The notes below the pieces were generated by a model that worked only from the letters and a program-made list of their open reading frames with translations, did not search any database and was not told the origin of the DNA. Made by a program: the position numbers and the translations under genes. This document shows positions 11,638 through 45,906 of a DNA stretch of 64,000 nt, piece by piece; the first letter of the stretch is position 1, and the number at the start of each line of letters is the position of its first letter. This stretch comes from Vermamoeba vermiformis (lineage: Eukaryota), in assembly GCA_045837725.1 (NCBI GenBank), contig JBEWZL010000237.1:1-64000 (forward strand), written 5' to 3'.

Positions 11638-12533
11638 ATGTCATTGAAAGGAAAGATCGCGCTCGTCACCGGTGCTTCAAGAGGTATTGGAGCTGCTATT
11701 GCACTTGCTCTTGCTAAAGAAGGAGCTGATATCGCTATTACTTATGTCAGCAAGCCTGAAGCTGCTCAAAAGGTAAGCTTAGATGCGATCTTCTGCCATT
11801 CCTTATCCTGACTTACTTATTCATTGCTATTCTATTCTCACTAATAGACCGTAGAAGAAGCCAAAAAGCTTGGAGTTCGTGCCATTTTCATTCAAAACGA
11901 TGTCAGAAAAGTCGATACTCATCAAAGCTTGGTCGATCAAGTCGTCAAAGAATATGGTCGTATTGATATCCTCGTCAACAACGCCGGTGTTATCTCGCCT
12001 GCCAATTTGACCACAGTAACCAGCGAAGAGTTCGATAGAGTCTTTGAGACCAATGCTAAGGTACATTACATTTCTTTCGGATCACATTAAGAGACGTTCT
12101 TAATCTATTATTAATAGCGACTGACTTAATATATATTTAGGCACCGTTATTCTTAATTCAAAAGGCTGTTCCTCATATCCCTTCGGGCGGTTCAATTATC
12201 AACGTCGGATCTGCCGCTACAAAGGCCAACGGAGCTGCGACTGCCCCAATCTACGCAGCCTCCAAATTCGCTGCTACCGCTTGGGCTATTGTTTTGGCGA
12301 AGGAGCTCGGTGCTAAGGGCATTCGCATCAATACCATTGCTCCTGGATTCACCAACACCGATATGCTTCCTGAAGCCGCCAAGGAGATCGCGAAGAAGAG
12401 CTCTGTATTTGGGCGATTAGGCGAAGCTGAAGATATAGCCAATATTGTATCTTATCTCGCTGACTCGAAGAAGAGCGGATGGGTCACTGGTCAGCACTTG
12501 GATGCTTCTGGTGGTGGTATCTTGCAATTCTAA
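11638..12533 (+). CDS. Classical short-chain dehydrogenase/reductase, FabG-like, copy 1 (3 exons)
   Basis: TGASRGIG, LVNNAG, INVGS, YAASK, GIRINTIAPG, WVTGQHLDASGG. Confidence 0.92.
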
Positions 12534-20249: not shown

Positions 20250-21211
20250 ATGTCATTAAAAGGAAAGATCGCACTCGTCACTGGTGGCTCCAGAGGTATT
20301 GGTGCCGGTATCGCATTAGGACTCGCTAAAGAAGGTGCTGATATTGCTATTACTTATGTTAGTAACGCCGATGCTGCTCAAAAGGTAAGTGGATCGACGA
20401 GTAAAAATTGAATTTTCTTCAATAAAATCGAAACTAACGATCTTGCTAATAAATAGGTAGCTAATGATGCAAAAGCATATGGCGTGCAAGCAATCGCGAT
20501 AAAGAACGATATTAGTGACTTAGCCAGTCATCAGACCTTAGTAGATCAAGTCGTTAAACAATTTGGTCGCATTGATATTCTTGTAAATAACGCTGGTACC
20601 TTCACTCATAGTTCATGGACAAACGTGACGGCCGAAGAGTTCAATAAGATTTATGATTTAAACGTTAAGGTAAGATTATTACCAAATTTGGATAAACTAC
20701 CGAGTTTTCACCCTCCGTGGATTGATTTAATGCTAAATTTAAATTAATCGTTAACTTAGGCGCCACTCTTTTTGATTCAAAAAGCGTTCCCGCACATACC
20801 TTCTGGCGGATCTATCATCAACATCGGATCTGCTGCCGTTAAAGCTAATGCCGCCGTTCCAGCAGTCGTTTATCTTTCCAGTAAATTCGCAGTAGCCGCG
20901 TATGCCTCGCTCATGGCCAAAGACCTCGCAGAGAAAGGTATTCGCATTAATACTGTCTCGCCTGGCTTCACGGACACCGACATGTTAGCCGATCCAAACT
21001 TCCGTACTTTTGGCGCCAGTCAATCGGTATTTAAGAGATTAGGTACGATGAATATACGTCATAATAATAGTACGTTTAACTTACGATGGTATTTCTAGGA
21101 AATAACGAAGACATAGCGAATATTGTGACCTTCTTGGCGGATTCAAAGAAGAGCGGTTGGATTACTGGCCAACAAATCGATGCTTCTGGAGGTGTTTCGC
21201 TACAATTCTAA
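20250..21211 (+). CDS. FabG-like SDR, copy 5 (4 exons; extra intron 21043-21098)
   Basis: TGGSRGIG, NNAG, YLSSK, WITGQQIDASGG. Confidence 0.9.
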
Positions 21212-21327
21212 GAAAATATTGTATAGTTCTTTCTTCGGGCTTCAATATAGGTGATCTCAAAAAAAAAAGATCCGAGCTAAATAAAATTATGTTTATTGAA
21301 TATTTGTTATCTTTGTTATTGTTATTA

Positions 21328-24300
21328 TTATTGTTTTGGTTTTCTAACAAACCGTAGTAAAATATAAGCTAAAATATTGAGCACCACTGCCATGCCGGCT
21401 AATATACCGACATTACGCCAGTAATTTGACGAATTCAAGTTGAATGCCACCAAGAATACATTGGCACCTATATATGGTCAGTAATGGCATTAAGCTATAA
21501 TAATCAGATTCTTACTAATGTTAACGGATCCAAAGCCTTCAACGCCTAGTTCGAGCTGCAGGCCTTCAAGTTCATTCGCTGTTAGGGCTTCAAATGCGTA
21601 ACTGAAGAACGAAAGATATCTACGATGCATATACAGGGTTAATTATGCGAAATAACAATGATTTCAAGGTCCGCGTACCGAAGCCAAATGAGCCAGACAG
21701 GAATGCTTTGAAAATTGAGTAAAAAGCCACTGAATAGCATTAAGAACAATAATATAGCCGCACTGACAATATTTCCGACTGAGTAAAGAATACAAATTAG
21801 CCCGTATTAAAATAAAATTGATAAAATTTCGTACCGGTCACTGAAGGCACTGAAACACTAATAACGTAGAACATGGCCGCAGAGACCATATTAAATAATA
21901 AGAATACCAATATGAACTTGAGGAAGTGTTCGGCATCGCCTACGAATCCAGCCATCCAATAGACTACGATCGCGTAGATCAAGGGAAAAACCATTCGTAG
22001 CGGCAGCAGATCTGAGAACATTGACGCACAATAATACGCTGAAGTTTGATAGCATCCATTAGATCGTTCTTTTTTGAATATTATTCGATCGCCAATGACT
22101 ATGAGGAAGAAAGTCAGTACAAATTTCCTAAAAAGGAAATGTTATCGAGAACTCGTACATAAATCTACGGCGCTAAGGCAGGCGAATGCGAATAATAGTA
22201 ACGAGAAGAATATGAGGCCTAGTCTATTCTGAAATCCAGCAATGTCGTTTTTCAGGTTCAAGAACACCACGCCGATGAACACAGCGACGACAACAGTGCT
22301 ACAAAATAACGTATTATTAATAATACGTAATAAGAGTAAATAATCATAAATAACTACGTACATGATAGCGTGAGTTCTGAGCAATGCAGGATTTCGCCAG
22401 AGATTAACGGCCTGTAATATTCTTAGTAAATGATATGAATACTCAAGTCAAAGTTTATGCTTACAGCACGATGTGATAGCACTAAGAATTGATTGCCCCA
22501 CGAAGAGGAGTACTGCTGCTTTGATTCTTTTTTCTCTTGTTTTTCTACGAATTTAAAAATTAATTAATTGCCTCATCATTAATCATTAGTTTACGTACTT
22601 TTCTTTTTATCTACAGCTGGATCGACGGCACTGCCATTATTAGTGATCGAATCGCTCAATTGTACGTTGCTGTTCTTGTGTACTGGGACCAGCACTTCCT
22701 TATTTGGTAAGTCCTCGCCGTGCTCTGCCGAAGAAGAGCTTGTCGAATTCTAATGATATTAGCATATATATATTATTGGTGGTACGTACTTTCGACGAAC
22801 CAGACGGCGATGATGAGACAGATCCGCTCGAGTTCGACTCAGCACTTTTCGTTACTTGTAACTCGGCCTTTCTCTGCGCGACATCTTTATTCCATTGCTC
22901 GTAAGAACGGACTAAGCCATTTAAAGCCTCGTCAGGCTCTTCGTTGAGTATTGAAACTAATAGAATTGTATCAGCTAAATGATTTTTTCGTAGTTTAGCC
23001 GCTTACTCATAAAATCAGCAGGATTTTCGTATTTGGGACATTTGAAGCCGTTTTGAGCGAAGAATTGCGGTGCGTCTGAAGCAGATCCGTAGTAAACAGT
23101 GTAGCCGTCCCACAACAAGACCAACGAATCGAACATTTGATAAATCGCTGATCTCGGCTGATGAATGCTGCAAACAATACTGCAGTTGCGCTTTTCGGCC
23201 AAATCTTTAAGGATTTGCATCACAATCGTCGCGTTGTAACTGTCCAAGCCGGATGTCGGTTCATCGAGCAACAAAATCTTCGGGTATGTTACCAGCTCCG
23301 TAGCAATCAGTACTCTATAATATTACGATTAGTAATCGGACCATTATAGTCAAGACAAAGAAGCTATTTCAATTTAAAAGTGCAAAATAAATTTGATAAA
23401 ATTTTGTAACGAATATTTCGAGTCATTACTCAATAGTATTAGCGTGATTAATACCTTCTTCTTTCGCCACCTGACAACCCTCTAACTGATGAGTCGCCAA
23501 TAAGCGTGTCTTTAACATGATTCAGCCGTAGTTCGGCAATAACGCTCGCAACCTATTGCATATTATATTATCAGTACTTGCTTAGATTGATATCGTCCCG
23601 TGTACGTACTATTTCTTTGATTTGGGCATAAGGCACACTTTCAGGCAATCGTAGTTGCGCAGAGTAGATCAGCTGTTCTTGAACTGTTAACGTGCCTAAC
23701 AAGCACTCTTCTTGAGTAACATATCTATATACGAACAATTAGTCAAATTAATGATACTACTTTTTAATCTAGGTGGCGACTCTCATAAATAAAAAAAGTA
23801 TCGAAGTTTCAAGAGACGTACCCAGCAATTCTTTTGAAGTATTTGGGCAGAGGCTGTCCGTCCATTAAAATGCTGCCCGTCACTACACCACGCTTGCCGA
23901 TGTGACTAATAATGTCGAGTAGGGTTGTTTTGCCTGAGCCAGATGACCCCATGACTGCGCAGATTTGACCCGGGTAGATCTTCATATTCACGTTGTGCAA
24001 TATAGTCTTTTTGGACTCTTCTTTCTTTTGACATGCTTTTCCTGACCTGACCTTCACTTTGTACTGCACATCTTTCAGTTCTAACGTGCATCCTTCAATC
24101 GCTGTTTTGATCACTTCATTGTACGGCCTGTCACGCAAATTAAATTTTAGAAACTATTGCTAATTACGCAGATTATATTCATGCAATGAATAAGTACGTA
24201 CTTCTTTACTTTTTTCCGAATGACGTAGATCACGAATGGCGTTACCAAACAGATCCCGACTCCTATCGGAATCACAACACCACCAACAATGATGCCAGTG

Positions 24301-33120: not shown

Positions 33121-33357
33121 CTTTGTTGTTTTCAAATGGAATTAATTGCTAGTTGTTTAGGGTTCGCCATCTGGATGCCGGCTATAAAAAGCGATGAGAA
33201 TGACAGTAACTCTTTCATTTGCGATCGAAGACGAGTAGTGTTGTTGTGCCTTATCGCATGAGAGGGAAAAATAACGCGCAAGACAAATTTTATTGAGAAG
33301 TGTTAGAGCGGAAATTAACTCACGACGCACAAGGTGAACATTGATGGTGGCATTCAG

Positions 33358-36300
33358 TTATTTGTGCTTCAAAGTGCACCAAATGGTTTTACTAGTCCAC
33401 TCGATTGGATCAACGAGATTAACCGTGTTAGGTCCAACTCCCTACCAAGAAGTACTGTTATTAATTGCACTATGTATAGTAGCTTATACATTAACATACC
33501 CTAGTCGCGGAGTATCCTTCTTGTTCGAGGTATCTGTAATTCGTCGGCTCAGTCGTCACGTAAAGTTTGTATGCGGCCTTATTGACACGTCCGGGAATTG
33601 ATTTGTCAATAGCTACTGGTCCATATGCTTTGGTGCCATCTGGAATATTCACCATAAACTCGGTGCTGGGCAATGGGCCTGTGTCTGCGTGGTCTTCGGG
33701 ATAAATTTGTTTAATGCCACCGTTTTCGTCGAACTGAATGATGGCAAAATAGAGTTTTTCTTGCGACGTTTGTCGGACACCAAATCTGATGTACTCTCCT
33801 TCGACGAGTTCACCATGGCCTCGAATTTCAGTCCACTGCTGCACCGGTGTGAATTTGCTTTTTGAGTGATAAACAACGAACTCGATCTGATCCTGCCACA
33901 AGGTCTCGTTGTGATTATGTAAATGCATCTCGTATTGTGCATAGGCTAATAGGTTGTTCACTATCGCTTCTTTGTTTGATGACGGATCAGGGGGCAAGAC
34001 GATGTTATTGTCCTTGTCCGTTACTACGTATGCTGTAGTTTTGGTCAAATTGATGAAATGATTAAACGGTTGCTGCATTTCTTTCATTATCAACACGGCT
34101 TTGTTCTTTTCGACTTCGCGGAATCTTTCGCTCAACTTCGTTCTGACACTTTCCAGACAGAAGGCGGGCAGGTTTATAGCAATACGATTCTCATCTGCCC
34201 GTTGGATCTCGAATGCACGGTACCCCTTGAGCTCGTAGTCGACATTCTGTTGCAGCGAAGCCCAACAAGTCGTGCTTCCGACGAAGACAACAGAAGCTGT
34301 CATTTGAGAGCTGCCATCGGGCACTCTCACATTGGGCTTGTAGAGGGCAAACACTGAGCCTCGCGTTATTGCATGCACAGTGCCGACATCAAGCTGTACG
34401 TCATCACCGTCCCGACCGATGACAACTGCAAATTTGCTGCCATCGAGCTTGGAAGTGCCAAACAGCTGCCACGTTCTTTCACCTTCAATCTTTGGCGTCT
34501 GCTTCTCAAATTTTGTGGCTATTTGTCCAAAGATGTCGCCGTAGGTCACTTGTTCGTCCACGCTCGTAATTGATTGCAAGGCAGTGCACCAATAGAATGT
34601 CAATGCACCGTATGACTTAGCTTCGTGGTCCACCTCGTAAGCGAGCCTATTATACGCACAAGCAGCGATAACAACGACGTTGTCGAGTGAGGGGCGATAA
34701 TTGTGAAGACGATCAATGTTTTCTAAGGCATAGTAGGTCAGTACAAGTCACACCATAACAAGTGGTACTTACTGATTGATTGTGTCGTCCCCAAGCGCGA
34801 GTCATGCGATACAATGCGGGCTCGAACAAGCTTGGTTGGATCTCTCGTGATAGATTCAGAGTGACAGGAATCGAAGATGACTGATACGTGAGCTGCGTAT
34901 TTTGATAGCTCCGACAAAAATGCTCTGATCTCTTCATCTGTTATGTCGGTAGATGGTGGGACTTGGCTGTCATCCTCTATAAGGCCACCGTCCTTCTTCA
35001 AGCGACCGCTGTCACAGGGCACAATAGTCTCGTTCTGACCTGTTGGATGATTTGGGTTTGGTCGCACTGAGCCATGACCACTGTAGTGAATTGTAACAAC
35101 TCCGCCGGGATTTTGTTTTACGTTCTCAATCAGAGTTGCGAAGGCAGCTAAAATATTGTCACGTGTCGGGAGATTTGACGTCTGAAGGTTGTCGTCGCTG
35201 ATCAAGCACATGATGTTCTCTTCCTTGAATCCAAACTTGTTGATCAGTGTAGTCTTCATCAATTCGACATCGTTGACAGCACCAGTAAGACCTTTGATAT
35301 ACTGGTACTTGTTGATGCCTATCAGCAGCGCCAATTTTAGGGTTTGTTTCTCGCTATCGGGACCTCTTGTTCGATTAGTGAGTTGGACATTCGCAAACGG
35401 GTCGTCGTTGCCGTGTTTTCCAATCATGAAGTCCGCTGGTTTATCATCGGCTGTATTCTCTGCACTGGTGGCAGTAGATGAGGGCGGCGCCGCAACTTGA
35501 AATCTAGAAAAATTGTTGAGTACGCAGTCCATTATTTCATTAATAGGCATACCTATTTGGTGTGGCGTGTTCATCGATACCGTCGCTAATCATTTGTTCT
35601 TTCAAATAATTAAGCTCGTCAACGACGTCTGCATTGTCTGGTCGGTCTATTGACGCATCCACATCGCTGATAGAGCACTCGTAGATCTCTTTAAGACCAT
35701 CGTTTGTGAGGGTTTTGAAGATTTCTTCTTTGTGCGCAAGAATGTACCACAGAGTGTAAGACGGGCATCGCATATACACTAGGGCACTGCCGCGTGCTTG
35801 CACAACATCATGAACAGGAACGCCAAGAACTTTCAGCGAGATAGCAGCGTATTCGGAGACCGCTCTAATAGTGCCGTTAGGCTCGTATCGGAAGCACAAA
35901 TAGATTTTTGGCTTGGGCTCCGGTCTAATTGGTGGCGCAAGGCTCCATTCGTCGAGAAATTCGATGAAGCAGGATTCAAACACTTGATCCGGATCTCGAC
36001 CACTGCTAACACCGCTGAGAAGTACTTCGAGTCCATCAATAGCCAACAACTTCTTCTCAGGGGAATGTAGCTGGTTGTAATCTAACTCCAACGTATCCAA
36101 ACTGACCGCCTTCACCTTGCACTGCAGCGTGCCAGTAACTATCTGGTTGTCTTTGATTCTTTTGACGTTTGCGATGCTGGAAACTGTCATTAACGGACTT
36201 CCTTGTTCTTGACTATTCTCCAGCAACAATATGGCGTCGTTAGCAATGGACAAACAATCCATCATGGTGAGGGCACTTAGGTTATTGTAAGAGAGTACCA

Positions 36301-37072
36301 ACACGTGTCGTTTTTTGTCGGTCACAAATTGTTGAAAGCTGAAGAGATGAAGGTTGGCAGAACTTGCTTCTTTCTCGTACTTGAGCTTCTGCAGTGCTTT
36401 TTGAACACACTCCACGAACTTTCCGGGCACCAAAAGTAGCACGTTTGTATTGACATCAGAGGTCGGAGTTGGCACCATAACAGGAAGAGGGTGAGTAAAT
36501 TGATCGTGTTGCACTTCAGCAGGTTGCAAGGGAGGAGCAGGCTGCGGAACATTAGTATTGTTTGTGTCGTTTCCAGGGGTTCCTTGCGGCGACTCGCTGA
36601 CTAACGGCATTGGGATTTCGTTCGTATTTGTTGCGTAGCAAATAACGTGCTCGACATGATTATCAGCGGCGAACAAAAACCAAACATTTCCCGACTTGTT
36701 TTTTTTGAAGTCAATTTGATTCAAATAACAAACCGGGTCAGTAGTTTTAACGCTCTGTTTGCATTCAAATAGCGCAGTATCGTCGCAGAGCAGTGTTACA
36801 GGTGCCATCGTAACAAACCAATAGATTGAGCGCCCAGAGAGTTTTTTATCTGCAGGAAGAGGCTTGGCAACTTGGATGATCTTTTTGTTTCGCTTTTCGA
36901 CGTCCGTCAATTTGTTTCCAAGGTCTTTCACTCGTATGTAGCGCAGTCTCGGTCTGAAGAAAAGCATTTTAGCTAATAGTCCGCCGCAAATAATACACTT
37001 ACAGAGGGTCACTACAGACCGCCATTGGATCGGACTGGTATTGTTGCTCGGTGTTTGTAATGAGCGAACCAT
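33358..37072 (-). CDS. Large caspase-family protease (Peptidase C14, prokaryote-like) with ~510-aa N-terminal extension and C-terminal DUF4384-like domain; exons 37072-35553, 35503-34773, 34722-33500, 33441-33358
   Basis: ALLIGINKY..LTGAVNDV; HYSGHG and IFDSCHS catalytic dyad; IAAC...AYE; YGALT; QTPKIEG; DVGTVHAITRGSVFALY; EGEYIRFGV..LYFAIIQFDENGGIKQIYP. Three short GT-AG introns join the ORFs in frame. Confidence 0.9.
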
Positions 37073-37596
37073 AGTCTATCATTTCATCGCTCTCCCACTC
37101 TTGGTTTGGGTTGTCGTTGTTGTTATTTCCGCCTAGTCATTAATTAATAAAACCAAATATGTTTCTAATAAAATAAACATTTTCAGAACATTATTTAATA
37201 GCCCAATACCCAGAGCTTCGAGATAATTTAATAGAAAAGTGTCGGATTTGGCTTTAGAAAAATTAGTTGTTTGAACTCGAAAAAAGAAATCTTACTCATT
37301 TTTGATATTGCCCAAGTGACTTGAGAATATTTGTGGTGTTATATTCTATTCTTTGGGTGAAAAGAATTAAACCAATTCTTCTTCGTGGCGGTTGTTTGTG
37401 GTTGCTCAGTTGTAAATCGTATTATAGACGCGATGTAGTTCTATTCTTTTCTGTTCATGCACAATGAATTAAATGATAAGATTCTCCCACGTGAAACTAT
37501 TGGCAGGCCACGTGTCGTGTTTAGCAAGATCTCCGTGATTATTTCCTGAAATTGATTTATATGATGATTTCGTATTCAAACGTAATATGGCTCGTT

Positions 37597-40318
37597 TCAG
37601 AAGCCAATTACAACGTAGTTTTTCCACTCATTAGAGTGATGGAAAAGATCTGAAATCGCTTCACGGTATGCAACGATTTTTGACTTGCCTTCACTAATGC
37701 GCCTGTAGAACGATGACATGAATGCTTTGGCCATTTCGTCTTTGATACTCGTCAAAGTGGCCACAACACACTCCGCACCTATTGTTCCGCTTTAATTAAT
37801 TGAATAAATGGATCCATCGAGTTTCACGTACCAACCACGATGAACGACATGTAGATACCGAGAGGACCAATCGACACTTCAGCGCCATCAGCAGTACTGC
37901 AACACGAAAGCGTGACTAACTTTAACCGCTCCATATTTGGAGATGTCAAAATGTCATCAGCGTTTAGCAATTCTTTGCCGAACAATTGAATCTTGCCTGA
38001 CAGCTCGTAGTAAGTGCCGCCATGGCCTTCAGGCTTATTATGGCTTGCCAAATGAACGACAGTTAAAAGTTTGTTGCGTAGTGCTGCGATGACTTGATCG
38101 CGACAAAAATCCTTGCCGATCAACTTCTTTGGCTTAGTCAACTTCAAGAGCTCTTCAATCTGCTTGATTTCATGTTGAACTTCGTCAAGATCGCCCGTCG
38201 TCAGTCCACCGAGCAGTGTTGCTGTGCTGCTGTCCAGCGTCACGCCACGCAACAGTCCAGCACAGCGCTGTTTCACAAACCAAAACAGCGATGGAAGAAT
38301 GCAGACGTGCTTCTCTTCGATCAAGTACTTGGAGGTATCGGGAATATTGAATGCGGCAGGATTGGACCACTTGCCTTGAAACACAAAGCCCACGTGTGCG
38401 AATGGTTGGAGTGCTTCGTGCAAGATTAAAGGGTACATGTCTTCTTCTTCTAATTCAACTGGCTTGGGAGGCACGCCACGAGTAACTCCTGCGACATCAC
38501 TCACGGACACCATTGAGTATCGCTTTCTGTTCTTCGGTCGTTCAAATGCCATGACTGCGTTCTTCGAGATGAAGTAGATGTACTCAGCACTCGCCTTGTT
38601 GAATACATCTTTGCATAAAGAGTAGACCACAATCGCTGACACGTCGTCGAGAAGTGCTTGAACTTGTGCCACGGTCACTGCATCTTCGTGTCGCAGATGA
38701 ACATTAGCGTTGTAACTGAGCGATGTCAGTGACAGTCTGAACCAATCTGAGACTTCAATCGCTGAGGAGATGTCGCCGAGAGACACGTGTATGAGTTGAT
38801 AGAGTTGCGAGAGTTGATGGTGTAGCTCGAAGGCACTCAGTACCAGACGTGAGCTCGAGGAATTATTCAATATTCTTTTCGAACATTCAATGCACTCTTC
38901 GATACTTTCTTTCGCTTGCGTCAGCTGGTTCAACTTCCAGTAAGCCAAAGCCAAGCCGTAGAGTCGCATAATTATGAAATATTCTTCTTTGACACTTTGA
39001 CAGGTTGAGTTGACGAGCTCTTGGATTGCAGCGTGATAATGTTCGTCTAGAAGATGCGCGAAGCCAAGTAATATTGTTGCACGCTGAAACTCTCCTTTCT
39101 TATCGTGTGCTGCGGCCAGTTCTTTGATACGTGTGAAGTGCCGTTTAGCATCATCAGCTTGGGGTCTGACGAAGAGTGCAACATAGCCGAGATTGAAGCG
39201 CGATGCAGTGATGCCATCGATGTTGTTGCATTGCTCGTACCATTGCAAGCTCTCAATGTGATACTTCTCCGACATGACCGAGTATTCAGGCTGTCGCTGC
39301 TGCTGACAGAGAATGCCCAAAATATTGTTCACAAAAGCTCGTTTTGGTACGGGAATATCCCAACGCAAGTACTCGTCAAGTGTCATTTTAATCTCGTTCA
39401 TCTTTTGTGCATCGTCACCGCTGATGTGAGGGACAATTGGCGAGGAGTGAAAGGCCGAGGGAAGTTCGTCCGGTTCAAGCTTGATGAGGTCATTCCACGC
39501 CTCTTTGAACCACGCAATGGCGTTCGTAATGTCGCCATTCACGATGTACATAATGATGATGCTGAAGCGCATTGTCGTTTTAAACGAAGGAAGCGTTTGC
39601 CGGACAAACACGTCTTTTTCGTGCAGCAGCTTGGCTAGTTGTGGTATTATTCCGTCGAGTTTTGTCATGACCTCTTTGGGTATTTGATTCAATATACGCT
39701 AACAGTTCGATAAGTACTCATATATATTATAAGAGGTTTACTAACCTCGACATTGGCAATCGTGCGCTCAAAGTTGCGAAACGATTCAACGCCCTTCTCG
39801 AAGCATTCATTTGCCTTCTGAAACTCTCCGCGCAGTCCATAACAACGACCTTGCCATAACTTGAGTCCAATTCCAAGCACGGAGAAGTACATATTGGCAG
39901 GGAAAGTACAAATAACAAATCGGATCTTCTCCAGAGCTTTGAGTATATTCATAGCAACTTCTATGAAATTGGTGCTCGGGACTTGGAGCTGTTCTATAAG
40001 GTCTTTAGCCTCGCCAGACTCGTGTTGAATCTGATTCAAAAGAGATCGCATCCGGCCCGCTTCGTCGAGCTTCGCGGCTATCATTGAAGATGCGAGTTCG
40101 AAAAGGTTATTGTTGAAACAATACTTTTCAACTTCGATCCACTTCGTCCGTAGAGAATGCAGGTCTTCACCGAGGGTTGCTAACTTTGAAAGGGCTTGCA
40201 CGGGATCGGGATATTCATCTTTCGGTTCAATAGACTCAATCTTACGCCAAATGGCACGAAAAGTTTCTTCTGCTTCTTTATCCACTATAGTAATTATCTT
40301 CCTGTTATTCTGTAGCAT
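37597..40318 (-). CDS. TPR-CHAT protease A (exons 40318-39746, 39698-37832, 37778-37597)
   Basis: Helical/TPR repeats (NNILGILC, RFNLGYV, LYGLALAYWKL); CHAT motifs YLIEEK, VHLASHN, LVTLSCCST, GAECVVATL..IKD, W..YVVIG. Confidence 0.88.
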
Positions 40319-40657
40319 TGCGAGCCTGAAAACTAAAATTAATTTTGGTTTTCAAGATCGGCTTCTGAAAGTGCAGCCAACAGAGCAAACAATCAAATAC
40401 AAAATCTTGTGCTACCATAATGATGAAAATTATTTACCTTGTTACTCTTGCTCCCGAAACTGACACGCTGTCAAATCCGAAGAATATGGAACTATTGATT
40501 GTGGAAGTACAGTTGTGGATAAACCTGTAGAACCTAATTTCAACAATGGTGCATCGGTGGAGAAAAGTTTTCAAAGAATAGATTGATTTGTGGCACAAAA
40601 AAAAAAGAATTGAATTAGATCAGTTCACTTCGATTATATACTTACAACACGACCACA

Positions 40658-42295
40658 ATGAGCACTAAAATTCTAAATTGGGATATTAAATTGAGCCAAG
40701 ACGTCCTAGGAAGCTTGCTAAACTGCGCTACTGGCCTTCAAGTCTCCGGATTAAAGGTGAATCTGAAGCCTGGCTTATTTAAAGTTGTAGACGGCGCAGC
40801 AGAGCTATTCTTCCACGCAGATAATGGCGCCGAAGTGTCTATAAATGCGATTTTGCGCATCAAAAAGGCATCAGCAACCAGCGTCACACTGATCCCCGAG
40901 AAATTTGATCTAAATCCAAAATTTGTCAAGGTCAGTCACAATTCACAAAAACTTTTTGTTTCTGTACCTCCAATTACTTCCGATGGACTTGGAAAAGATG
41001 ATAGCACTCTTCTTGGAAACAGCATGCTTGATTTTTTGTTGCCGATTCTATTGGAAGCGATGATGACAGGACACAGCACCGCCATTCCCAAGTCTTCACC
41101 GACCACGGTAGACGGTGACACACTGCCAAAACTGATCGACAAAGCGACCATTCAACAAGTCGTCGTTAATCTTGCCGGCGAGTTCAAGTACTTCGAGACA
41201 GCTGTCAAACTGAGAGACGCATCCAATGTCACTCTCACTGACGTGTACCTCGATCTGGCGCACAAACAGCTCGAGTCAATGGCATCCGTGAATCTTCTCG
41301 TTGCTGATGGTACTATCAAGCCCTCAAAGTCTGGCTTACTGAACCTTCACGATCTGCAATTGTTGATACCACAACTTGCGTTGGAGGCCAACAATAGAAC
41401 CGTGCACGTGCAATCTCTTGCTCCGTTCAGTATCAACTTCGGTGGCAGTGGCAGTGCAGTGCTCAACATTGGCAACACAACGATCAACTTGACGCAAGGA
41501 GCGCTTCAGATCGAGCAACTCGAAGCAACGGAATCACCCGATGCAACATCTCTGCAGTTCACTGTCAATGCTCAGTTGAAGCATGCGATGACGTTAACAC
41601 TCGGGGATGGCATGCAACTCATTGCAAGTCAGTTCCACAGTCGTGTCCACATCGGCGCGGAGTCACAGATCCAAAGCCTGCAAGCCCGTCTAGCGATCGA
41701 TAAATCTCGTCTTCTCGCGCTATTAAAGCCTGAAATAGAACGCAAGTTAGTTGGCGTACGTTTGCACGGCGAATTCAATTACGGACCTGCTTTGAACGAG
41801 AAGTTGATGAGCGTCGACATCCAGCCAGGAGTCACTGCGCAGCTTCAATGGGTCCATGGCACTAACGACGCAGTTGACGTGACTATCAATGCAAAGCTGG
41901 GAGGCGAGCACAAGACTTTCATCGCAAGCAAAGGACTGTTCGATTGGCCAATGAAGTGGGAGAGTGATGGCCACATAGTGATGGGCGATGCCAATGCTTC
42001 GTTGCGATGCAGCCTCAAAATCAATCCAGGTAACAACGCGAGCATCGGAGTCAACACGACAGTAAACAGCCTTCAGCTGCCCTCGATCAGCATCTTCCTC
42101 ATCCCGGTTGGCGATTTGCTCTCACAATTTGGCCATCTCTTCAAAGTACCTGATACGAGTGTACCTCTCCCTAACATTGGCACTGCCACTGGATTGTCAT
42201 TCATGCGTGGTTTGAGCATCAAATTCGCGCAGTTTGTTCCCTCCCAGACCGGCAACACGGTTGATCTAGATATTAATGTTAGCAATGATAGATAA
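40658..42295 (+). CDS. Intronless 545-aa beta-strand-rich protein of unknown function (possibly TULIP/AsmA-like fold)
   Basis: Long clean ORF with amphipathic beta pattern; no signal peptide or catalytic motif recognised. The fold is a guess. Confidence 0.75.
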   Translation: MSTKILNWDIKLSQDVLGSLLNCATGLQVSGLKVNLKPGLFKVVDGAAELFFHADNGAEVSINAILRIKKASATSVTLIPEKFDLNPKFVKVSHNSQKLFVSVPPITSDGLGKDDSTLLGNSMLDFLLPILLEAMMTGHSTAIPKSSPTTVDGDTLPKLIDKATIQQVVVNLAGEFKYFETAVKLRDASNVTLTDVYLDLAHKQLESMASVNLLVADGTIKPSKSGLLNLHDLQLLIPQLALEANNRTVHVQSLAPFSINFGGSGSAVLNIGNTTINLTQGALQIEQLEATESPDATSLQFTVNAQLKHAMTLTLGDGMQLIASQFHSRVHIGAESQIQSLQARLAIDKSRLLALLKPEIERKLVGVRLHGEFNYGPALNEKLMSVDIQPGVTAQLQWVHGTNDAVDVTINAKLGGEHKTFIASKGLFDWPMKWESDGHIVMGDANASLRCSLKINPGNNASIGVNTTVNSLQLPSISIFLIPVGDLLSQFGHLFKVPDTSVPLPNIGTATGLSFMRGLSIKFAQFVPSQTGNTVDLDINVSNDR

Positions 42296-42960
42296 AAATT
42301 AATAATTAAGTGCATAGCTAAATTTGGCTTTAGTTCCTCATCATTCAATATCCCGATAATAATTCATACAAAAAATTTAATTAATTGTAAATAATAAGAT
42401 AATTGCGATATCTTGCAAAATAATACACGAGTATTGAGGTAATATTTTTAAATAAAAGATTTACCTGCATTGTTTCAAAATTAGGCAAACGCTTCATGCT
42501 ACTGCTATTGTTACAACCGGCGCCAGAATATCGTAATAATTTAAAATAGGTTTGCGTGAGTGCAGTTGTATAGTTAACGTTTCGTGTTACAGAAACGAAT
42601 TTATTTCTGGCGATGATGGGAACACAAAACTGTTGCACAAACCCGTACATTGCATCCCGCCTTACCTTAGCCTTCAAATGACAACGCGCGTTATGTCAAC
42701 AAGCCGGTTATCGTGACGCTTTATTATCAAGGCATAGCCTTTTCTAGGTGGTTTAATTAAATTGACCGCGTAACGTTGGCTGAAAGGTAACGAAAACAAT
42801 ACAGTACTGCTTATTCGTCTGAGTCTGGATAAAATTCATCTTTGAGGTTCTTCATGAAGCCCATAAGGCTTGCTAGTTGAGGTTGTAAGGGATACGTTTG
42901 TGCATTGATTTCACTACTTGCATTAGCGTACAGTACGCGAGTTAATTAATATGCTGTGAC

Positions 42961-45906
42961 TTACTGTACGTGCGACGGCAATCCGATAAATCTGCGGTGA
43001 GATAGGATTGGTGAGAAATCTTCTGCTTGTGGCGCCAAGTTGCTGAACCCAATGGCAACAATCTCGTCATTTGGCTGACCAACGAGAATGAAGGGAGCCC
43101 AAACGAGGTGTGCTGGATCCCTGTCGCGTGCTGCAAGCATTGCATTGCGTAAAGCGACGTCTTTTGGCTGACTAAAAATGATAAAGTTTGTGTAAAAGTC
43201 GACCATCAGCTGAACTGTCTTTTCATCGGAGATTGGCCAAAGAGACGCAATCACAGTGGGTACTCCTGCAAGCAAGAAGGCTCTGTAATAATGTTAGTCC
43301 TCAATTAATCAATCTCGATTTGCACGCACCTGACAAGTCCTGCAACGCCATCGCTGCTGACGTCACCACGTGCTGTATTGCACGCTGAAAGAACGACCAT
43401 CTCGGTGTGCTTCAAATTCAGCAGTTGGATTTCATCTGAAGATTACGTAAGAAACTGTAAGCTGAACAACTTGTCTATTTTACTTGACCACAGTGAGCCA
43501 TTGTTTCCAGCCAGTTCAATGCTGCCTGTGAAGTTTTCACCTGACTCGGTAACAACGCTACTCAAACCAGCGTGCGTGGCAAAATGAGCCAAGTGCGACG
43601 AGGACAGCTCTGCTAAAGTCTTTTCCTTGGTGGCCTCGGTGTTCAACAGCACTTTAAGCTCACAATTCCAGTCTTCAAATGCTGTTTGGACATCTCTCGT
43701 TTCTTGTTCAGCGTAAGGTAAAGGTTGGAGATCAGGACGATGAGGGTGACCGACCAATAAGCAGCGAGGAGTGGCCTCTTTATCTTCTGTATGGTGACGT
43801 GTCAGTGGCTTGTCACGGTACATCTTTTGTGTCAACATGAAGAGCTGTATGGAGTATTGCACGGAGATAACGAACGAATCGATCAGTGCACTCTGCGATG
43901 TAGCGCCCAATGCAGCAAATGGTATTAAGAATAAGGGTCCCTAAAGCAAGTCAGAATTGCTGTTTGAGTCACGAAGATCTTACCGAAGGAACTATGAGCA
44001 GCGCGGGCTTCTTATCGTTCCAAAAAGAATCTTCTTCCGTTTCGTTCGAAAAAGGAAGATAATCTTTGATGGGCTCAATGAGTACGTTGTAAAGTGCGGC
44101 CAAACACTCTTCTGTTGACGCTACGCCATGCAATTCAACGGACTTTGCTGGCACACCTCTATGTGCATCCGATCCTGAATCCATTTGTTTTGTGTTTGAA
44201 CGAGTGCCAATGGCGTCACGAGTCCTTGTGACAAGGTCTGCAAGTGATTTGAAGTCGTTCGAATCAATCTTTTGCTGATGAAAACGAACTTTGTTGTTCG
44301 GGCAAATGACCCACGTTAACAGCACTTCATTAGAAGCAACACCAGATCTTTGTTATGAGATAGACGACCATCGTCAACTTGATTCGCTGAGTCCACTATC
44401 GTTTGAAGTGTAAATTTGCATGTACTGCTCGTATTTTTCTTCAGGTATTGGACACAAGCTCGAGCACGCTATTTCAGTGTCATCAACGCGGACTCGTGAT
44501 TGCCGATGCCAATAAGAGCTAGTATCAGCAAGTCAGAGACTTGGGCTTGTTTGCGCAGTAGTGCGACGCGTCGTACATCCAACGCCAATGAATTTTCATC
44601 TTCGCTTTCGATGTCCGTGGAAAGCACATCGTAGGACTTGAGTGCTTCGCTCAAATGTGTCACTGCATCTTCGTAACTCTGCTCAATGAGTAGCAGTCTC
44701 CCGAGCAGCGTCCGAACCAAGATTTGATCTCCAATTGACAGCGCGTCGATGCCGTCAAGTGCTAATTGAAGGTTGGTCTTTGCCTCTTGTGCACTCTTTG
44801 GCAGCACACATGTCGCGAGCCGTAAGTGGAACTCTGCTTCGAGCTCAGGGGCTGGTTTGTCTTTGAGTAGACTAAGAGCGCCATCGGTATCACCTTGGTC
44901 AATTAGCAGTTCAGCGAGGTGAACTCGGCACAAGTCGCGCTCTTTGCTGTCAGTCGCTGCTTGCTGTGCCAGTGTTAAATAGTGTTGCGCATCAGCCTTG
45001 GCTCCCGATCGCTTCAAGTACAGTCCTATTCAAGATGAGCTTGATATCAACGGGATGATCGGCTTACCTGCTCGAATTAGCGTAGTGTATATCAGTGACA
45101 GGTCTTCTAGCGGGAGATCTGCGGCAGTTTTCAGACTTTGTGCTGCAGCTTGATACTTTCCTTGCTTATCTTGCAGGAAGCCAGTAATAATAAGCGCTTT
45201 TGCTTGAACTTCAGGGTCATTCACCGTGTGAGTGCAGAGAAGATCAATGATGACACTGACGGGCAGCAATAATTCTAAAAAGAAATCTTTCTCTGGCTTG
45301 GTGTATTTTTCGTATAACAGTTGAATTCCTCGTGCGTTTTCCTTTCATTTGTATGCGCAAGAAGGCTCTTAATCTTGCCAATCATGAGAAGAATTAGCGC
45401 ACCATTGTAAGACGGCTCAGATGCGTGTGATTCAATAGCTAAAAGTTGTGTGTGCGCTAAATTGACGTTTAGTTTCTTCGGATTAAGGGCCAATAATGCA
45501 TAAAACATTCGAAAATAAATTGGCTCGTCGGCAAATACGTCCAGTTTTTCTTTTTCTTCCGTATTTTGAATAGCCGTATTAATTAGTCGCTCGGCGTCCT
45601 CAAGTTTTTGCAATTGCGCAGCGGATTTTGCCGAGAAATAAGCACAGCGGCCAACCCAAGCTCTTATATTCTTCTTTTGAGCTCGATCCAACGCAGTTTG
45701 AAAATGCTTTAAAGCCCGTTTGTAGAGCTTCTTGTCATAATTAAACTTTCCTAATCTGTAATTATCTTCAATAATTTGATACGTTCCTCTCGCCTAGAAT
45801 CATAATCAGACCAATTATTGTTTCGAAATATAAAACAACGCACCAAATCATCGTCAGCACACGTCAAAAGAGGGTTATGAGGCAGTCCAGGTGCGCGATA
45901 ATCCAT
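42961..45906 (-). pseudogene. TPR-CHAT protease B (TTC28-like CHAT), apparently disrupted
   Basis: TPR exons; LLIVPS|GPLFLIPFAAL, LPYAEQE, AHFATHA, VVLSACNTARG, AGVPTVIASLWPISD, WAPFILVG. In-frame TAG at 44469-44471 (ALMTLK*RARA), frameshifts near 44380 and 44345, and an unresolved frame change near 45340. Confidence 0.75.

What the first reader, a model, noticed from the sequence alone, without database searches (positions are those of the whole stretch)
33358..45906. Clustered caspase + two TPR-CHAT proteases + unknown ORF: candidate eukaryotic proteolytic defence/death cascade
Seen: three clan-CD protease genes (one C14 caspase with HYSGHG/DSCHS, two TPR-CHATs), co-oriented within 12.5 kb, with an intronless unknown gene between the CHATs. 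Exons are longer and introns sparser than in flanking genes such as ACSS3 or the ABCG. Known: caspase/CHAT clusters are typical of prokaryotic conflict systems (SAVED-CHAT activating PCaspase, TPR-CHAT Csx29, proteases beside bacterial gasdermins), whereas eukaryotic genes rarely cluster by pathway. Inference: an operon-like module, possibly horizontally acquired and since intronised, with TPR sensors, CHAT/caspase amplification and an effector.
Basis: partly seen in the sequence, partly recalled or inferred. Interest (0 to 1): 0.9.

Follow-up and report, generated by a model that had tools for sequence, protein, structure and literature searches.

The report
Bacterial-type CHAT–caspase protease cluster in a eukaryote
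A microbial eukaryote carries, side by side and with introns, a metacaspase-like protease and two TPR-CHAT proteases whose closest relatives sit next to each other in bacterial conflict operons, so it looks like an inherited bacterial protease cascade, though its function in the eukaryote is untested.

Summary
Three clan-CD protease genes lie on the minus strand: a C14 caspase-like gene (37072→33358), TPR-CHAT1 (40318→37597) and TPR-CHAT2 (45906→42962). An intronless 545-aa gene (40658-42295) lies on the plus strand, head-to-head with CHAT1.

All catalytic His/Cys pairs are present. Spliced contigs from a ~96%-identical relative confirm five predicted introns and show that all four genes are transcribed. 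CHAT2 looks broken in the window, but two of its three breaks fall in a stretch where short-read contigs of the same organism carry many extra bases, so these are probably assembly errors.

The caspase plus its C-terminal module is collinear with a ~685-aa bacterial "caspase family protein" and nests among bacterial sequences. Of 75 bacterial loci with that gene, 37 have a CHAT gene within 7 kb, 26 of them on the same strand within 1.1 kb. CHAT2 resembles those caspase-linked TPR-CHATs.

An intronised bacterial CHAT+caspase pair is therefore supported for the caspase and CHAT2. It is weak for CHAT1. The "effector" reading of the middle gene has no support: that gene is an orphan, with one 95% relative among 1.84 billion proteins. 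A cleavage cascade is inferred only by analogy with SAVED-CHAT→PCaspase.

The parts
33358..37453 (-). Metacaspase-like (C14) gene. It has a 5'UTR exon (at least 37453..37295), a 163-nt UTR intron, and a CDS from 37072 (or the ATG at 36808) to 33358. CDS exons: 37072-35553, 35503-34773, 34722-33500, 33441-33358. Layout: N-terminal extension with no family, then the p20 region (His 35071-35088, Cys 34858-34872), then a C-terminal beta-rich module.
   Evidence: Model. Pfam C14. Introns 34722/34773 and 37131/37295 seen as spliced joints in X4. Collinear with bacterial P0033 and with P0010. C-terminal module folds with pLDDT 81 and has no whole-fold PDB match. The N-terminal part P0002 has no hit in Pfam, PADLOC, NCBIfam or the Atlas.
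37597..40318 (-). TPR-CHAT1 gene, about 870 aa. Exons 40318-39746, 39698-37832, 37778-37597. Catalytic His at 38040-38054, Cys at 37896-37910.
   Evidence: Model. Pfam CHAT and TPR_8. Intron 37776/37830 seen in X4. Dyad alignment. Its only relatives are P0008 (95% identical) and a weak Rivularia CHAT.
40319..40657 (.). 339-bp divergent intergenic region between the start codons of CHAT1 and the orphan gene. It is a candidate shared promoter.
   Evidence: Coordinates. Promoter function is inferred, not tested.
40658..42295 (+). Intronless orphan gene of 545 aa (P0001), beta-rich by a low-confidence prediction, with no clear transmembrane segment.
   Evidence: ORF. One relative only, at 95% identity. 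No match in Pfam, PADLOC, NCBIfam or PDB. AF2 pLDDT 30. A 1521-nt X4 contig covers it. Among its listed differences 20 are synonymous and 18 non-synonymous, and 25 of 38 fall at third codon positions.
42962..45906 (-). TPR-CHAT2 gene, about 890 aa if intact. RNA-supported introns at 45843-45794, 43983-43941 and 43329-43283. Predicted introns at 45067-45026 and 43483-43436. Catalytic His at 43572-43586, Cys at 43377-43391.
   Evidence: It resembles bacterial caspase-linked TPR-CHATs: best E 3.8e-15 for the last 110 aa, and tblastn 32-43% identity to the L001 CHAT.
44343..44467 (.). Stretch of the window with many missing bases relative to short-read contigs of the same organism. It causes the apparent stop and frameshift in CHAT2.
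   Evidence: table 4: 12 insertions listed, 7 more not shown. Record 8 is 2133 nt long against a 2107-nt span of the window and has 26 gap letters.

Best explanation
The cluster is the intron-bearing, compositionally ameliorated descendant of a bacterial conflict operon. That operon pairs a TPR-CHAT protease with a ~685-aa metacaspase-type 'caspase family protein', which I call PCaspase-like.

Shown:
- All three proteases keep their catalytic His/Cys.
- The genes are spliced and transcribed in a close relative.
- The caspase is collinear with the bacterial family and nests within it.
- That family is frequently operon-linked to TPR-CHAT or CHAT-SIR2 genes in many phyla.
- CHAT2 resembles the linked TPR-CHATs.

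Inferred mechanism, by analogy with SAVED-CHAT→PCaspase. The helical/TPR arms of CHAT1 and CHAT2 sense a trigger such as an invader or a damage signal. This releases the CHAT protease. The CHAT protease cleaves and activates the metacaspase-like enzyme, perhaps by removing its eukaryote-specific N-terminal extension. The activated enzyme then cuts many proteins after basic residues and causes growth arrest or cell death.

The orphan gene between the CHATs is a lineage-specific addition, divergently transcribed from CHAT1. Its role as substrate, inhibitor or unrelated passenger is open.
For: Domains and dyads.

Eukaryotic and expressed: six GT-AG joints at predicted sites in X4 contigs, which cover all four genes.

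Bacterial affinity of the caspase:
- Of the best 120 of 1605 hits, every row that names an organism is bacterial, at 36-46% identity. One unnamed 650-aa protein, P0010, is at 54%.
- The C-terminal exon aligns to residues 198-632 of a Tolypothrix protein, E 6e-21.
- In the tree of 66 rows, window+P0010 (100*) sits inside a 35-row bacterial clade with support 86.

Linkage in bacteria:
- 580 of 592 pattern matches encode relatives, and 80 loci were kept.
- 39 of 80 loci have a CHAT ORF in the flank.
- Of 75 loci with a clustered caspase ORF, 37 have a CHAT, 26 on the same strand within 1.1 kb and 18 within 300 nt.
- In the clade that holds the window's caspase the count is 20 of 28, against 5 of 20 outside it.
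- The neighbours are TPR_12 x4 + CHAT of about 1016 aa (27 loci) or CHAT+SIR2_2 (17 loci).

Chance control: five of these genomes have 4-101 CHAT matches in 5.8-11.2 Mb. By my arithmetic that gives about 1-14% per 16-kb locus.

CHAT2 and the linked CHATs: a 110-aa query ranks the caspase-adjacent CHAT 1 of 18, 1 of 2, 2 and 3 of 22, and 2 of 12 in four genomes (I mapped the coordinates).

Precedent for CHAT cleaving and activating a C14 protease: Steens et al., bioRxiv 10.1101/2023.06.23.546230 (abstract and sections 4-5 read).
Against: - No cleavage, binding or phenotype data exist.
- CHAT1 has no significant match to the bacterial linked CHATs (E 0.0063) or to CHAT2. It may have a separate origin.
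- In the fifth genome the caspase-adjacent CHAT ranked only 7 of 8, and the query was short.
- The branch that places the window's caspase inside the CHAT-linked clade has support 86, unstarred. The tree used a quick search with midpoint root, and window_casp and P0010 have atypical composition.
- These bacteria are rich in CHAT genes, so some adjacency is background.
- GC3 of the cluster genes (0.49-0.53) equals that of the ACSS-like neighbour (0.50), so composition gives no sign of transfer.
- Eukaryotic homologues could not be sampled systematically. P0010 is of unknown origin.
- Two RNA-seq runs labelled as the same species gave only 4 and 7 partly fitting reads out of about 13 million read each. 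No control gene was laid, so this means either silence or a mismatched strain.
- The window holds another bacterial-looking gene (DUF1800+DUF1501). Foreign genes may simply accumulate here.
Confidence: 0.5

Rival explanations
1. Chance or 'foreign-gene neighbourhood' co-location. The caspase, CHAT1 and CHAT2 were acquired or expanded independently and lie together without functional coupling. Each acts, if at all, on its own.
For: - CHAT1 and CHAT2 show no BLASTP similarity to each other.
- CHAT1 cannot be tied to the bacterial linked CHATs.
- An unrelated orphan gene sits between the CHATs.
- Another bacterial-type gene (DUF1800+DUF1501) lies at 154-4497.
- CHAT genes are numerous in the candidate donor phyla.
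Against: - The same pairing, this caspase family beside a TPR-CHAT on the same strand, recurs in 26 of 75 bacterial loci, mostly in the clade nearest the window's caspase.
- CHAT2 ranks the caspase-adjacent paralogue first or second in 4 of 5 genomes.
- The three protease genes are co-oriented and tightly packed: the CHAT1 stop lies less than 150 nt from the caspase's first exon.
Confidence: 0.27
2. Protease-plus-executioner pair of the gasdermin type. TPR-CHAT1 and the divergently transcribed orphan protein are the functional unit. CHAT1 cleaves the orphan to release a toxic or pore-forming fragment. The caspase and CHAT2 are accessory.
For: - Head-to-head arrangement with 339 bp between the start codons.
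- The orphan has the highest contig depth among the four genes in X4 (13.3; depth is a poor measure).
- It is under purifying selection by a rough count.
- In fungi 19% of 1,884 gasdermin genes lie next to CHAT-type protease genes, and a TPR-CHAT (Q2L-6) processes its neighbouring gasdermin (Clavé et al. 2022, PMC8851545, passages read).
Against: - The orphan matches no Pfam family at all, so no gasdermin family either, at E<=0.01.
- It has no PDB sequence match.
- The Atlas gave only leads at or below 0.86.
- The AF2 model is unusable, pLDDT 30.
- At 545 aa it is much longer than the ~35-kDa gasdermin quoted in that paper.
- It has no counterpart beside the bacterial homologues.
Confidence: 0.13
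3. Decaying relics. The cluster is an old insertion now degenerating: CHAT2 is a pseudogene and the locus is transcriptionally silent.
For: - CHAT2 has two frameshifts and one in-frame stop in the window.
- Two RNA-seq runs of the species label gave 4 and 7 reads.
- A DNA contig joins 38021 to 44058, skipping 6036 nt, at about half depth. This may be a deletion allele.
Against: - The breaks at 44343-44467 coincide with dense insertions in same-organism short-read contigs, and the 45340 shift is absent from the relative's transcript.
- The caspase, CHAT1 and orphan ORFs are intact over 3.6, 2.6 and 1.6 kb.
- Catalytic residues are kept.
- All four genes are transcribed and spliced in the relative.
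- Synonymous changes are in excess in the orphan.
Confidence: 0.07
4. Bacterial contamination or a chimeric assembly.
For: The closest named relatives of the caspase are bacterial.
Against: - GT-AG introns of 43-53 nt lie inside the genes and are removed in RNA contigs.
- The cluster is flanked on the same contig by intron-rich eukaryotic genes.
- GC3 matches that of the neighbours.
- Independent short-read contigs tile the region (table 8).
Confidence: 0.01

Closest known systems
SAVED-CHAT → PCaspase cascade of Haliangium ochraceum, type III-B CRISPR/CBASS hybrid (Steens et al., bioRxiv 10.1101/2023.06.23.546230; abstract and sections 4-5 read)
   Same: A CHAT protease gene is clustered with a C14 'caspase' gene. 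The caspase domain is N-terminal: the paper's catalytic mutant is H79A/C146A, and the bacterial family here has its invariant His and Cys at positions 90 and 150 of P0033. The bacterial relatives found here also have Ser/Thr-kinase and sigma/anti-sigma neighbours, as in that cluster.
   Different: The sensor here is a TPR/helical arm, not SAVED, and there is no cyclic-oligonucleotide signalling or CRISPR context. The host is a eukaryote, the genes have introns, and the caspase has an extra N-terminal extension. I could not test whether PCaspase itself belongs to the ~685-aa family. The paper's extended-data phylogenies and supplements were not seen.
Bacterial TPR-CHAT / CHAT-SIR2 + ~685-aa 'caspase family protein' operons (found here in Cyanobacteriota, Chloroflexota, Acidobacteriota, Pseudomonadota, Calditrichota and others). 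I know of no experimental study; recalled, no dedicated search for it.
   Same: The same caspase architecture, p20 plus a C-terminal beta module. A TPR+CHAT partner of about 900-1000 aa. Same-strand adjacency. Some loci hold two CHAT genes around one caspase (L013, L016, L025, L028, L047).
   Different: No introns. The partner is often fused to SIR2_2. Small 160-aa genes and anti-sigma genes are present there and absent from the window. The window's orphan gene and N-terminal extension have no counterpart in these loci.
Fungal TPR-CHAT (HET-Q2-like, Q2L-6) + gasdermin (HET-Q1-like, Q1-6) two-gene clusters (Clavé et al. 2022, PMC8851545; passages read)
   Same: A eukaryotic gene cluster that pairs a TPR-CHAT protease with a neighbouring gene which is its substrate.
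   Different: The neighbour here is not recognisably a gasdermin. A C14 protease is also part of the cluster.
Type III-E Craspase TPR-CHAT/Csx29 (PMC9729208; abstract from the search listing only)
   Same: TPR + CHAT architecture with a caspase-like His/Cys protease.
   Different: No gRAMP/Cas7-11 partner or CRISPR context. PADLOC gives no hit for CHAT1.
Metacaspases (C14B) of plants, fungi and protozoa
   Same: The p20 region of the bacterial family profile matches solved metacaspases: Arabidopsis metacaspase-4 at E 8e-43, and yeast and Trypanosoma MCA. The HYSGHG and DSCHS motifs are present.
   Different: The match covers only about the first 160 positions. The window's protein has a 330-aa beta-rich C-terminal module with no whole-fold PDB match, and its nearest relatives are bacterial.

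Membership tests
Peptidase C14 (caspase/metacaspase fold) | Significant match to the family profile | tested here: met
   PF00656 E 2e-20, 73.9 bits, cut-off 21.4. PADLOC 'caspase' E 3.2e-19.
Peptidase C14 (caspase/metacaspase fold) | Catalytic His-Cys dyad | tested here: met
   HYSGHG and DSCHS are present. The same motifs are invariant in the bacterial alignment A1.
Bacterial ~685-aa 'caspase family protein' (PCaspase-like) | End-to-end collinearity: p20 followed by the family-specific C-terminal module | tested here: met
   P0033 residues 10-172 and 198-563 map onto exons 2 and 3. P0003 against P0033 gives E 6e-21.
Bacterial ~685-aa 'caspase family protein' (PCaspase-like) | Placement inside the family's tree | tested here: inconclusive
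   Inside a 35-row clade with support 86, not starred. Quick search, midpoint root, atypical composition flagged. No eukaryotic outgroup was available.
CHAT proteases (PF12770) | Profile match above cut-off and His/Cys dyad, in both genes | tested here: met
   46.2, 66.4 and 42.4 bits against cut-off 24. Dyads aligned. The residue after the His is N in CHAT1 and A in CHAT2 instead of the usual G, but T and S occur in bacterial members.
TPR-CHAT + caspase operon (bacterial) | CHAT partner belongs to the caspase-linked TPR-CHAT subgroup | tested here: inconclusive
   For CHAT2 the caspase-adjacent paralogue ranks 1 of 18, 1 of 2, 2 of 22, 2 of 12 and 7 of 8, using a short query and no tree. CHAT1 gave E 0.0063 only.
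SAVED-CHAT/PCaspase cascade | SAVED sensor domain on the CHAT protein | tested here: not met
   Pfam finds TPR families only and no SAVED in either CHAT gene.
SAVED-CHAT/PCaspase cascade | CHAT cleaves and activates the caspase | not testable with these tools
   This needs biochemistry. No complex prediction was run, because enzyme-substrate pairs that lack deep alignments are poor cases.
Type III-E Craspase (Csx29) | Association with Cas7-11/gRAMP and Csx30 | tested here: not met
   No such genes in the window. CHAT1 has no PADLOC hit. CHAT2 was not scanned against PADLOC.
Gasdermin + protease clusters | Neighbouring gene has a gasdermin fold or family match | tested here: not met
   The orphan P0001 has no family in Pfam at E<=0.01 and no PDB sequence hit. 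Its fold is unknown, pLDDT 30, so a fold-level resemblance is not excluded.
Eukaryotic operon (polycistronic transcription) | One transcript spanning two or more of the genes | not tested
   All that is known is that the CHAT1 stop (37597) lies less than 150 nt from the caspase's first exon (at least 37453). The contig tables cannot show single transcripts.

The most novel reading that the evidence does not exclude
A eukaryote has kept a complete bacterial-style two-tier protease death switch as a linked gene cluster. TPR-CHAT initiators cleave a PCaspase-like executioner. A lineage-specific orphan protein, transcribed from a shared divergent promoter, has been recruited as a new kind of protease-activated executioner or inhibitor. 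That would be a caspase cascade that entered eukaryotes by gene transfer, independently of the animal apoptotic machinery.
Probability: 0.13. Interest if true: 0.85.

Novelty: new variant of a known kind. Interest (0 to 1): 0.62.

Why it matters
CHAT→caspase cascades have so far been shown in bacteria. In eukaryotes, protease-plus-substrate clusters are known mainly from fungal gasdermin loci. A eukaryotic locus that still holds both tiers of a bacterial protease pair, with introns, native codon usage and transcripts, would be a concrete case of a multi-gene immune or death module crossing domains and staying linked.

It gives a directly testable system: three proteases with obvious catalytic-dead mutants and one candidate partner. 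It bears on how proteolytic death cascades arise and are rewired.

The bacterial side is useful in itself. The linkage of the ~685-aa caspase family with TPR-CHAT or CHAT-SIR2 genes across many phyla points to a widespread candidate defence system. I know of no study of it; that is recalled, and I ran no dedicated search.

Tried and rejected
- Whole genome of the window: none is held. Copy number and other clusters in this genome could not be examined.
- Earlier findings: none for this genome.
- Orphan gene P0001:
  - word-indexed search, 1 hit
  - exhaustive HMMER over 1.84 billion representatives, 1 hit
  - PDB sequences, only E≈0.26 chance hits
  - Pfam, PADLOC and NCBIfam, none
  - Atlas, leads at or below 0.86 only, with weak pointers to LBP_BPI_CETP_C and DUF4403
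  - AF2 single sequence, pLDDT 30, so no fold search was attempted
  - hhalign against 30-odd bacterial neighbour clusters, best probability 1.1%
  - metagenome and viral scans, nothing.
- Caspase N-terminal extension P0002: no Pfam, PADLOC or NCBIfam match, no usable Atlas hit, no viral relative, no relation to bacterial neighbours or to a long bacterial homologue.
- Window/P0010 caspase subclade: not found in metagenome contigs or viral contigs. P0010's origin stays unknown.
- Names or accessions for the 95% relatives P0007 and P0008: none.
- RNA holders: no listed holder of the stretch is on record as RNA.
- RNA raw runs X17 and X19: only 4 and 7 partly fitting reads were laid.
- Recent tandem duplication of the two CHAT genes: rejected, no similarity.
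- Compositional signature of transfer: none.
- PDB fold search of the caspase C-terminal module: only ~100-residue beta-barrel sub-matches, TM at or below 0.16.
- Literature: searches for a eukaryotic CHAT+caspase cluster or for the bacterial TPR-CHAT+caspase operon listed nothing on point. These are keyword searches of an open-access subset, not proof of absence.

Full report
WHAT IS THERE

The window is eukaryotic DNA. It has short GT-AG introns of 42-53 nt, often with a CTRAC branch motif, and no tRNA genes.

Between 33358 and 45906 there are four genes.

(1) A C14 protease gene on the minus strand.
- CDS 37072→33358 in four exons.
- Exon 2 carries Peptidase_C14, E 2e-20.
- HYSGHG lies at 35071-35088 and DSCHS at 34858-34872.

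(2) TPR-CHAT1 on the minus strand, 40318→37597, three exons.

(3) An intronless 545-aa ORF on the plus strand, 40658-42295. It is divergent from CHAT1, with 339 bp between the two start codons.

(4) TPR-CHAT2 on the minus strand, 45906→42962.

Both CHAT proteins keep the catalytic His and Cys when aligned with bacterial TPR-CHATs. No further C14 or CHAT copy lies elsewhere in the 64 kb.

ARE THE GENES REAL AND INTACT?

One call of read laying gave three kinds of evidence.

Run X4 comes from a relative that differs at 56 of 1520 positions in the orphan gene.
- Its contigs carry joints that skip exactly the predicted introns: 34722/34773, 37776/37830, 43282/43330, 43939/43983 and 45792/45843.
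- They also skip a 163-nt intron at 37131/37295, upstream of the caspase start codon.
- X4 is therefore processed RNA, and it covers all four genes.

Run X1 consists of DNA contigs of the window's own organism.
- It tiles the region.
- It shows at least 12 small insertions at 44343-44467 relative to the window, with 7 more events not displayed and 26 gap letters in that record.
- This is exactly where CHAT2 seems to have an in-frame TAG and a frameshift. Those two defects are therefore most likely assembly errors in the window.
- The third apparent frameshift, near 45340, coincides with a loose end in X4 whose sequence is 7 nt longer and restores the frame. I could not see whether X1 has the same correction.

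Two RNA-seq runs labelled with the same species (X17, X19) gave only 4 and 7 partly fitting reads out of about 13 million read each.
- No control gene could be laid in the single call allowed.
- This shows either silence in those samples or a poorly matching strain.

The join of the caspase domain to the upstream 418-aa ORF rests on a predicted 49-nt intron (35552-35504). No RNA joint was seen for it.

THE ORPHAN GENE

P0001 has a single relative, at 95% identity. This holds both in the word-indexed search and in an exhaustive HMMER search of 1.84 billion representatives.

It has no Pfam, PADLOC, NCBIfam or PDB match. The Atlas gave only weak leads. The AF2 model is unusable, with pLDDT 30.

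It is nevertheless a real gene. It is a 1.6-kb open frame that is transcribed in the relative. Of the 38 listed differences, 20 are synonymous and 25 fall at third codon positions.

Nothing links it to any gene that accompanies the bacterial homologues, nor to viral or metagenome contigs. Calling it an effector is therefore unsupported. Its divergent pairing with CHAT1 recalls fungal TPR-CHAT/gasdermin pairs (Clavé et al. 2022, PMC8851545, passages read), but there is no gasdermin match.

WHERE THE PROTEASES COME FROM

Exon 2 of the caspase found 1605 longer proteins.
- Among the best 120, every row that names an organism is bacterial: Scytonema, Tolypothrix, Nostoc, Microcoleus, Rhodothermales, Pyrinomonadaceae and Anaerolineae.
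- Most are about 685 aa long, at 36-46% identity.
- One unnamed 650-aa protein, P0010, is at 54%. Its origin is unknown.

The homology is end-to-end.
- The 407-aa exon 3 aligns with residues 198-632 of a Tolypothrix protein, E 6e-21, and with P0010 at 42%.
- tblastn of the bacterial protein maps collinearly onto exons 2 and 3.

The p20 part of the family profile matches solved metacaspases, E 8e-43, so 'metacaspase-like' is the more exact name.

With a 65-sequence alignment the C-terminal module folds confidently (pLDDT 81, pTM 0.81). It is a set of small beta domains with no whole-fold match in the PDB (TM at or below 0.16).

The tree had 66 rows:
- the window's spliced caspase;
- one caspase ORF of 560-800 aa from each of 48 bacterial loci, with longer fused forms and loci lacking such an ORF left out;
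- 17 database proteins.

In this tree the window pairs with P0010 (100*) inside a 35-row otherwise bacterial clade. Support is 86, from a quick search with midpoint root, and the window's composition was flagged.

THE KEY TEST: NEIGHBOURS IN BACTERIA

A scan of one genome per prokaryotic species found 592 pattern matches. Of these, 580 encode relatives, and the best 80 loci were fetched with flanks of up to 7 kb.
- 39 of the 80 loci contain a CHAT ORF (jackhmmer).
- Among the 75 loci whose caspase ORF clustered with the family, 37 have a CHAT gene in the flank. In 26 it is on the same strand within 1.1 kb, and in 18 within 300 nt.
- The neighbours fall into two families: TPR_12 x4 + CHAT of about 1016 aa (27 loci) and CHAT + SIR2_2 of about 650 aa (17 loci).
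- In five Acidobacteriota loci the order is anti-sigma (zf-HC2), TPR-CHAT, a 166-aa gene, caspase, a 1040-aa gene on the other strand, CHAT-SIR2. That is one caspase with two CHAT genes, as in the window.
- Other loci have a Ser/Thr kinase-TPR gene upstream.
- Linkage is concentrated in the clade nearest the window's caspase: 20 of 28 loci against 5 of 20 outside it. For same-strand linkage within 1.1 kb the counts are 16 of 28 against 1 of 20.

As a control, five of these genomes hold 4, 19, 25, 27 and 101 CHAT matches in 5.8-11.2 Mb. By my arithmetic a CHAT gene would fall in a 16-kb locus by chance in about 1-14% of cases. Immediate same-strand adjacency would be far rarer.

CHAT2 AND CHAT1

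CHAT2's last 110 aa hit 32 of the bacterial flank ORFs, best E 3.8e-15. The Scytonema caspase-adjacent CHAT maps on CHAT2 at 32-43% identity.

I used those 110 aa to search five whole genomes and mapped coordinates. The caspase-adjacent CHAT ranked 1 of 18, 1 of 2, 2 and 3 of 22, 2 of 12 and 7 of 8. This is suggestive but not decisive, because the query is short.

CHAT1 is too divergent to place.
- Its only relatives are a 95% homologue and a Rivularia CHAT at E 6e-4.
- Its best match among the flank ORFs has E 0.0063.
- It is not similar to CHAT2.

AGE OF THE ACQUISITION

GC3 of the caspase, CHAT1, the orphan and CHAT2 is 0.49-0.53. This is like the ACSS-like neighbour (0.50) and within the spread of other genes in the window (0.38-0.58).

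Introns interrupt even the caspase domain. If the genes were transferred, that was long ago.

Intron density is still lower than in neighbours: 0-3 introns per gene, against 10 in the 1.9-kb ACSS-like CDS and a 27-exon model at 20-26.6 kb (heuristic models).

HOW IT MOST LIKELY WORKS (INFERRED)

In Haliangium ochraceum, a CHAT protease (SAVED-CHAT), once activated by its sensor domain, cleaves and activates a neighbouring C14 protease, PCaspase. PCaspase then degrades many proteins and causes abortive infection. That cluster also holds a sigma factor, an inhibitor and a Ser/Thr kinase (Steens et al., bioRxiv 10.1101/2023.06.23.546230; abstract and sections 4-5 read).

The bacterial operons found here have the same two protease tiers and similar accessory genes, but with TPR arms as the likely sensors. 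By analogy, the window's TPR-CHATs would be initiators and the metacaspase-like enzyme the executioner. Its eukaryote-specific N-terminal extension is a candidate pro-domain. None of this has been tested. I give the whole reading 0.5.

RIVALS

- Chance or 'foreign-gene neighbourhood' co-location: 0.27. The window also holds a DUF1800+DUF1501 single-exon gene of bacterial type.
- A CHAT1-orphan protease/executioner pair of the gasdermin kind: 0.13.
- Decay: 0.07.
- Contamination: 0.01, refuted by the spliced joints.

VERDICT

- The bacterial-operon ancestry of the caspase/CHAT pairing is now backed by a direct neighbourhood test.
- The effector role of the middle gene has no support.
- The cascade has only an analogy behind it.

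I found no report of such a eukaryotic cluster in keyword searches of the open-access library. That is not proof that none exists. Supplements and extended data of the cited papers were not seen, and they could bear on whether PCaspase belongs to the family described here.

Noticed in passing
window 154-4497 (-): A single uninterrupted 1448-aa ORF combines Pfam DUF1800 (E 1e-55) and DUF1501 (E 1.5e-29), with GC 0.505. As I recall, these two families are typically adjacent bacterial genes. It may be a second bacterial-derived, fused gene in the same window.
   Followed up: no
window 38021 and 44058: A DNA contig of the same organism (X1) joins 38021 to 44058. It skips 6036 nt, has one extra G, and its depth is 152 against about 300 around it. 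This form would fuse the 5' part of CHAT2 to the 3' end of CHAT1 and delete the orphan gene. It could be a deletion allele or a contig chimera. The two sides are not homologous.
   Followed up: partly
window 44343-44467 and ~45340: The window assembly lacks many bases relative to short-read contigs: 12 insertions listed and 7 more unseen. A relative's transcript carries 7 extra nt at 45334. Frames read from this stretch of the window are unreliable.
   Followed up: partly
window 37132-37294 and 37296-37298: The caspase transcript has a 163-nt 5'UTR intron. A short upstream ORF starts at the last codon before the donor and would read M-R-R-K-stop after splicing. The first exon lies less than 150 nt downstream of the CHAT1 stop codon.
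   Followed up: partly
window 11.6-21.4 kb: An array of at least five short-chain dehydrogenase paralogues on both strands. ORF pieces lie at 12141, 16250, 17445(-) and 19586, with a gene model at 20250-21357.
   Followed up: no
L013, L016, L025, L028, L047 (Acidobacteriota); L008, L010, L022, L033, L037, L039, L040: Bacterial loci with a recurrent order: zf-HC2 anti-sigma, TPR-CHAT, a 166-aa gene, caspase, a 1040-aa gene without family on the other strand, CHAT-SIR2_2. Other loci have a caspase directly followed by CHAT-SIR2_2, sometimes with a Ser/Thr kinase-TPR gene upstream. This looks like a widespread, uncharacterised candidate defence system.
   Followed up: partly
X1 loose ends at 33183, 37836, 41041, 44147, 46075, 46203: DNA contigs of the same organism diverge from the window at several points. 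At 37836, for example, the loose sequence differs from the window's intron at about 5 of 30 positions. This suggests a second, diverged haplotype or copy of the cluster.
   Followed up: no
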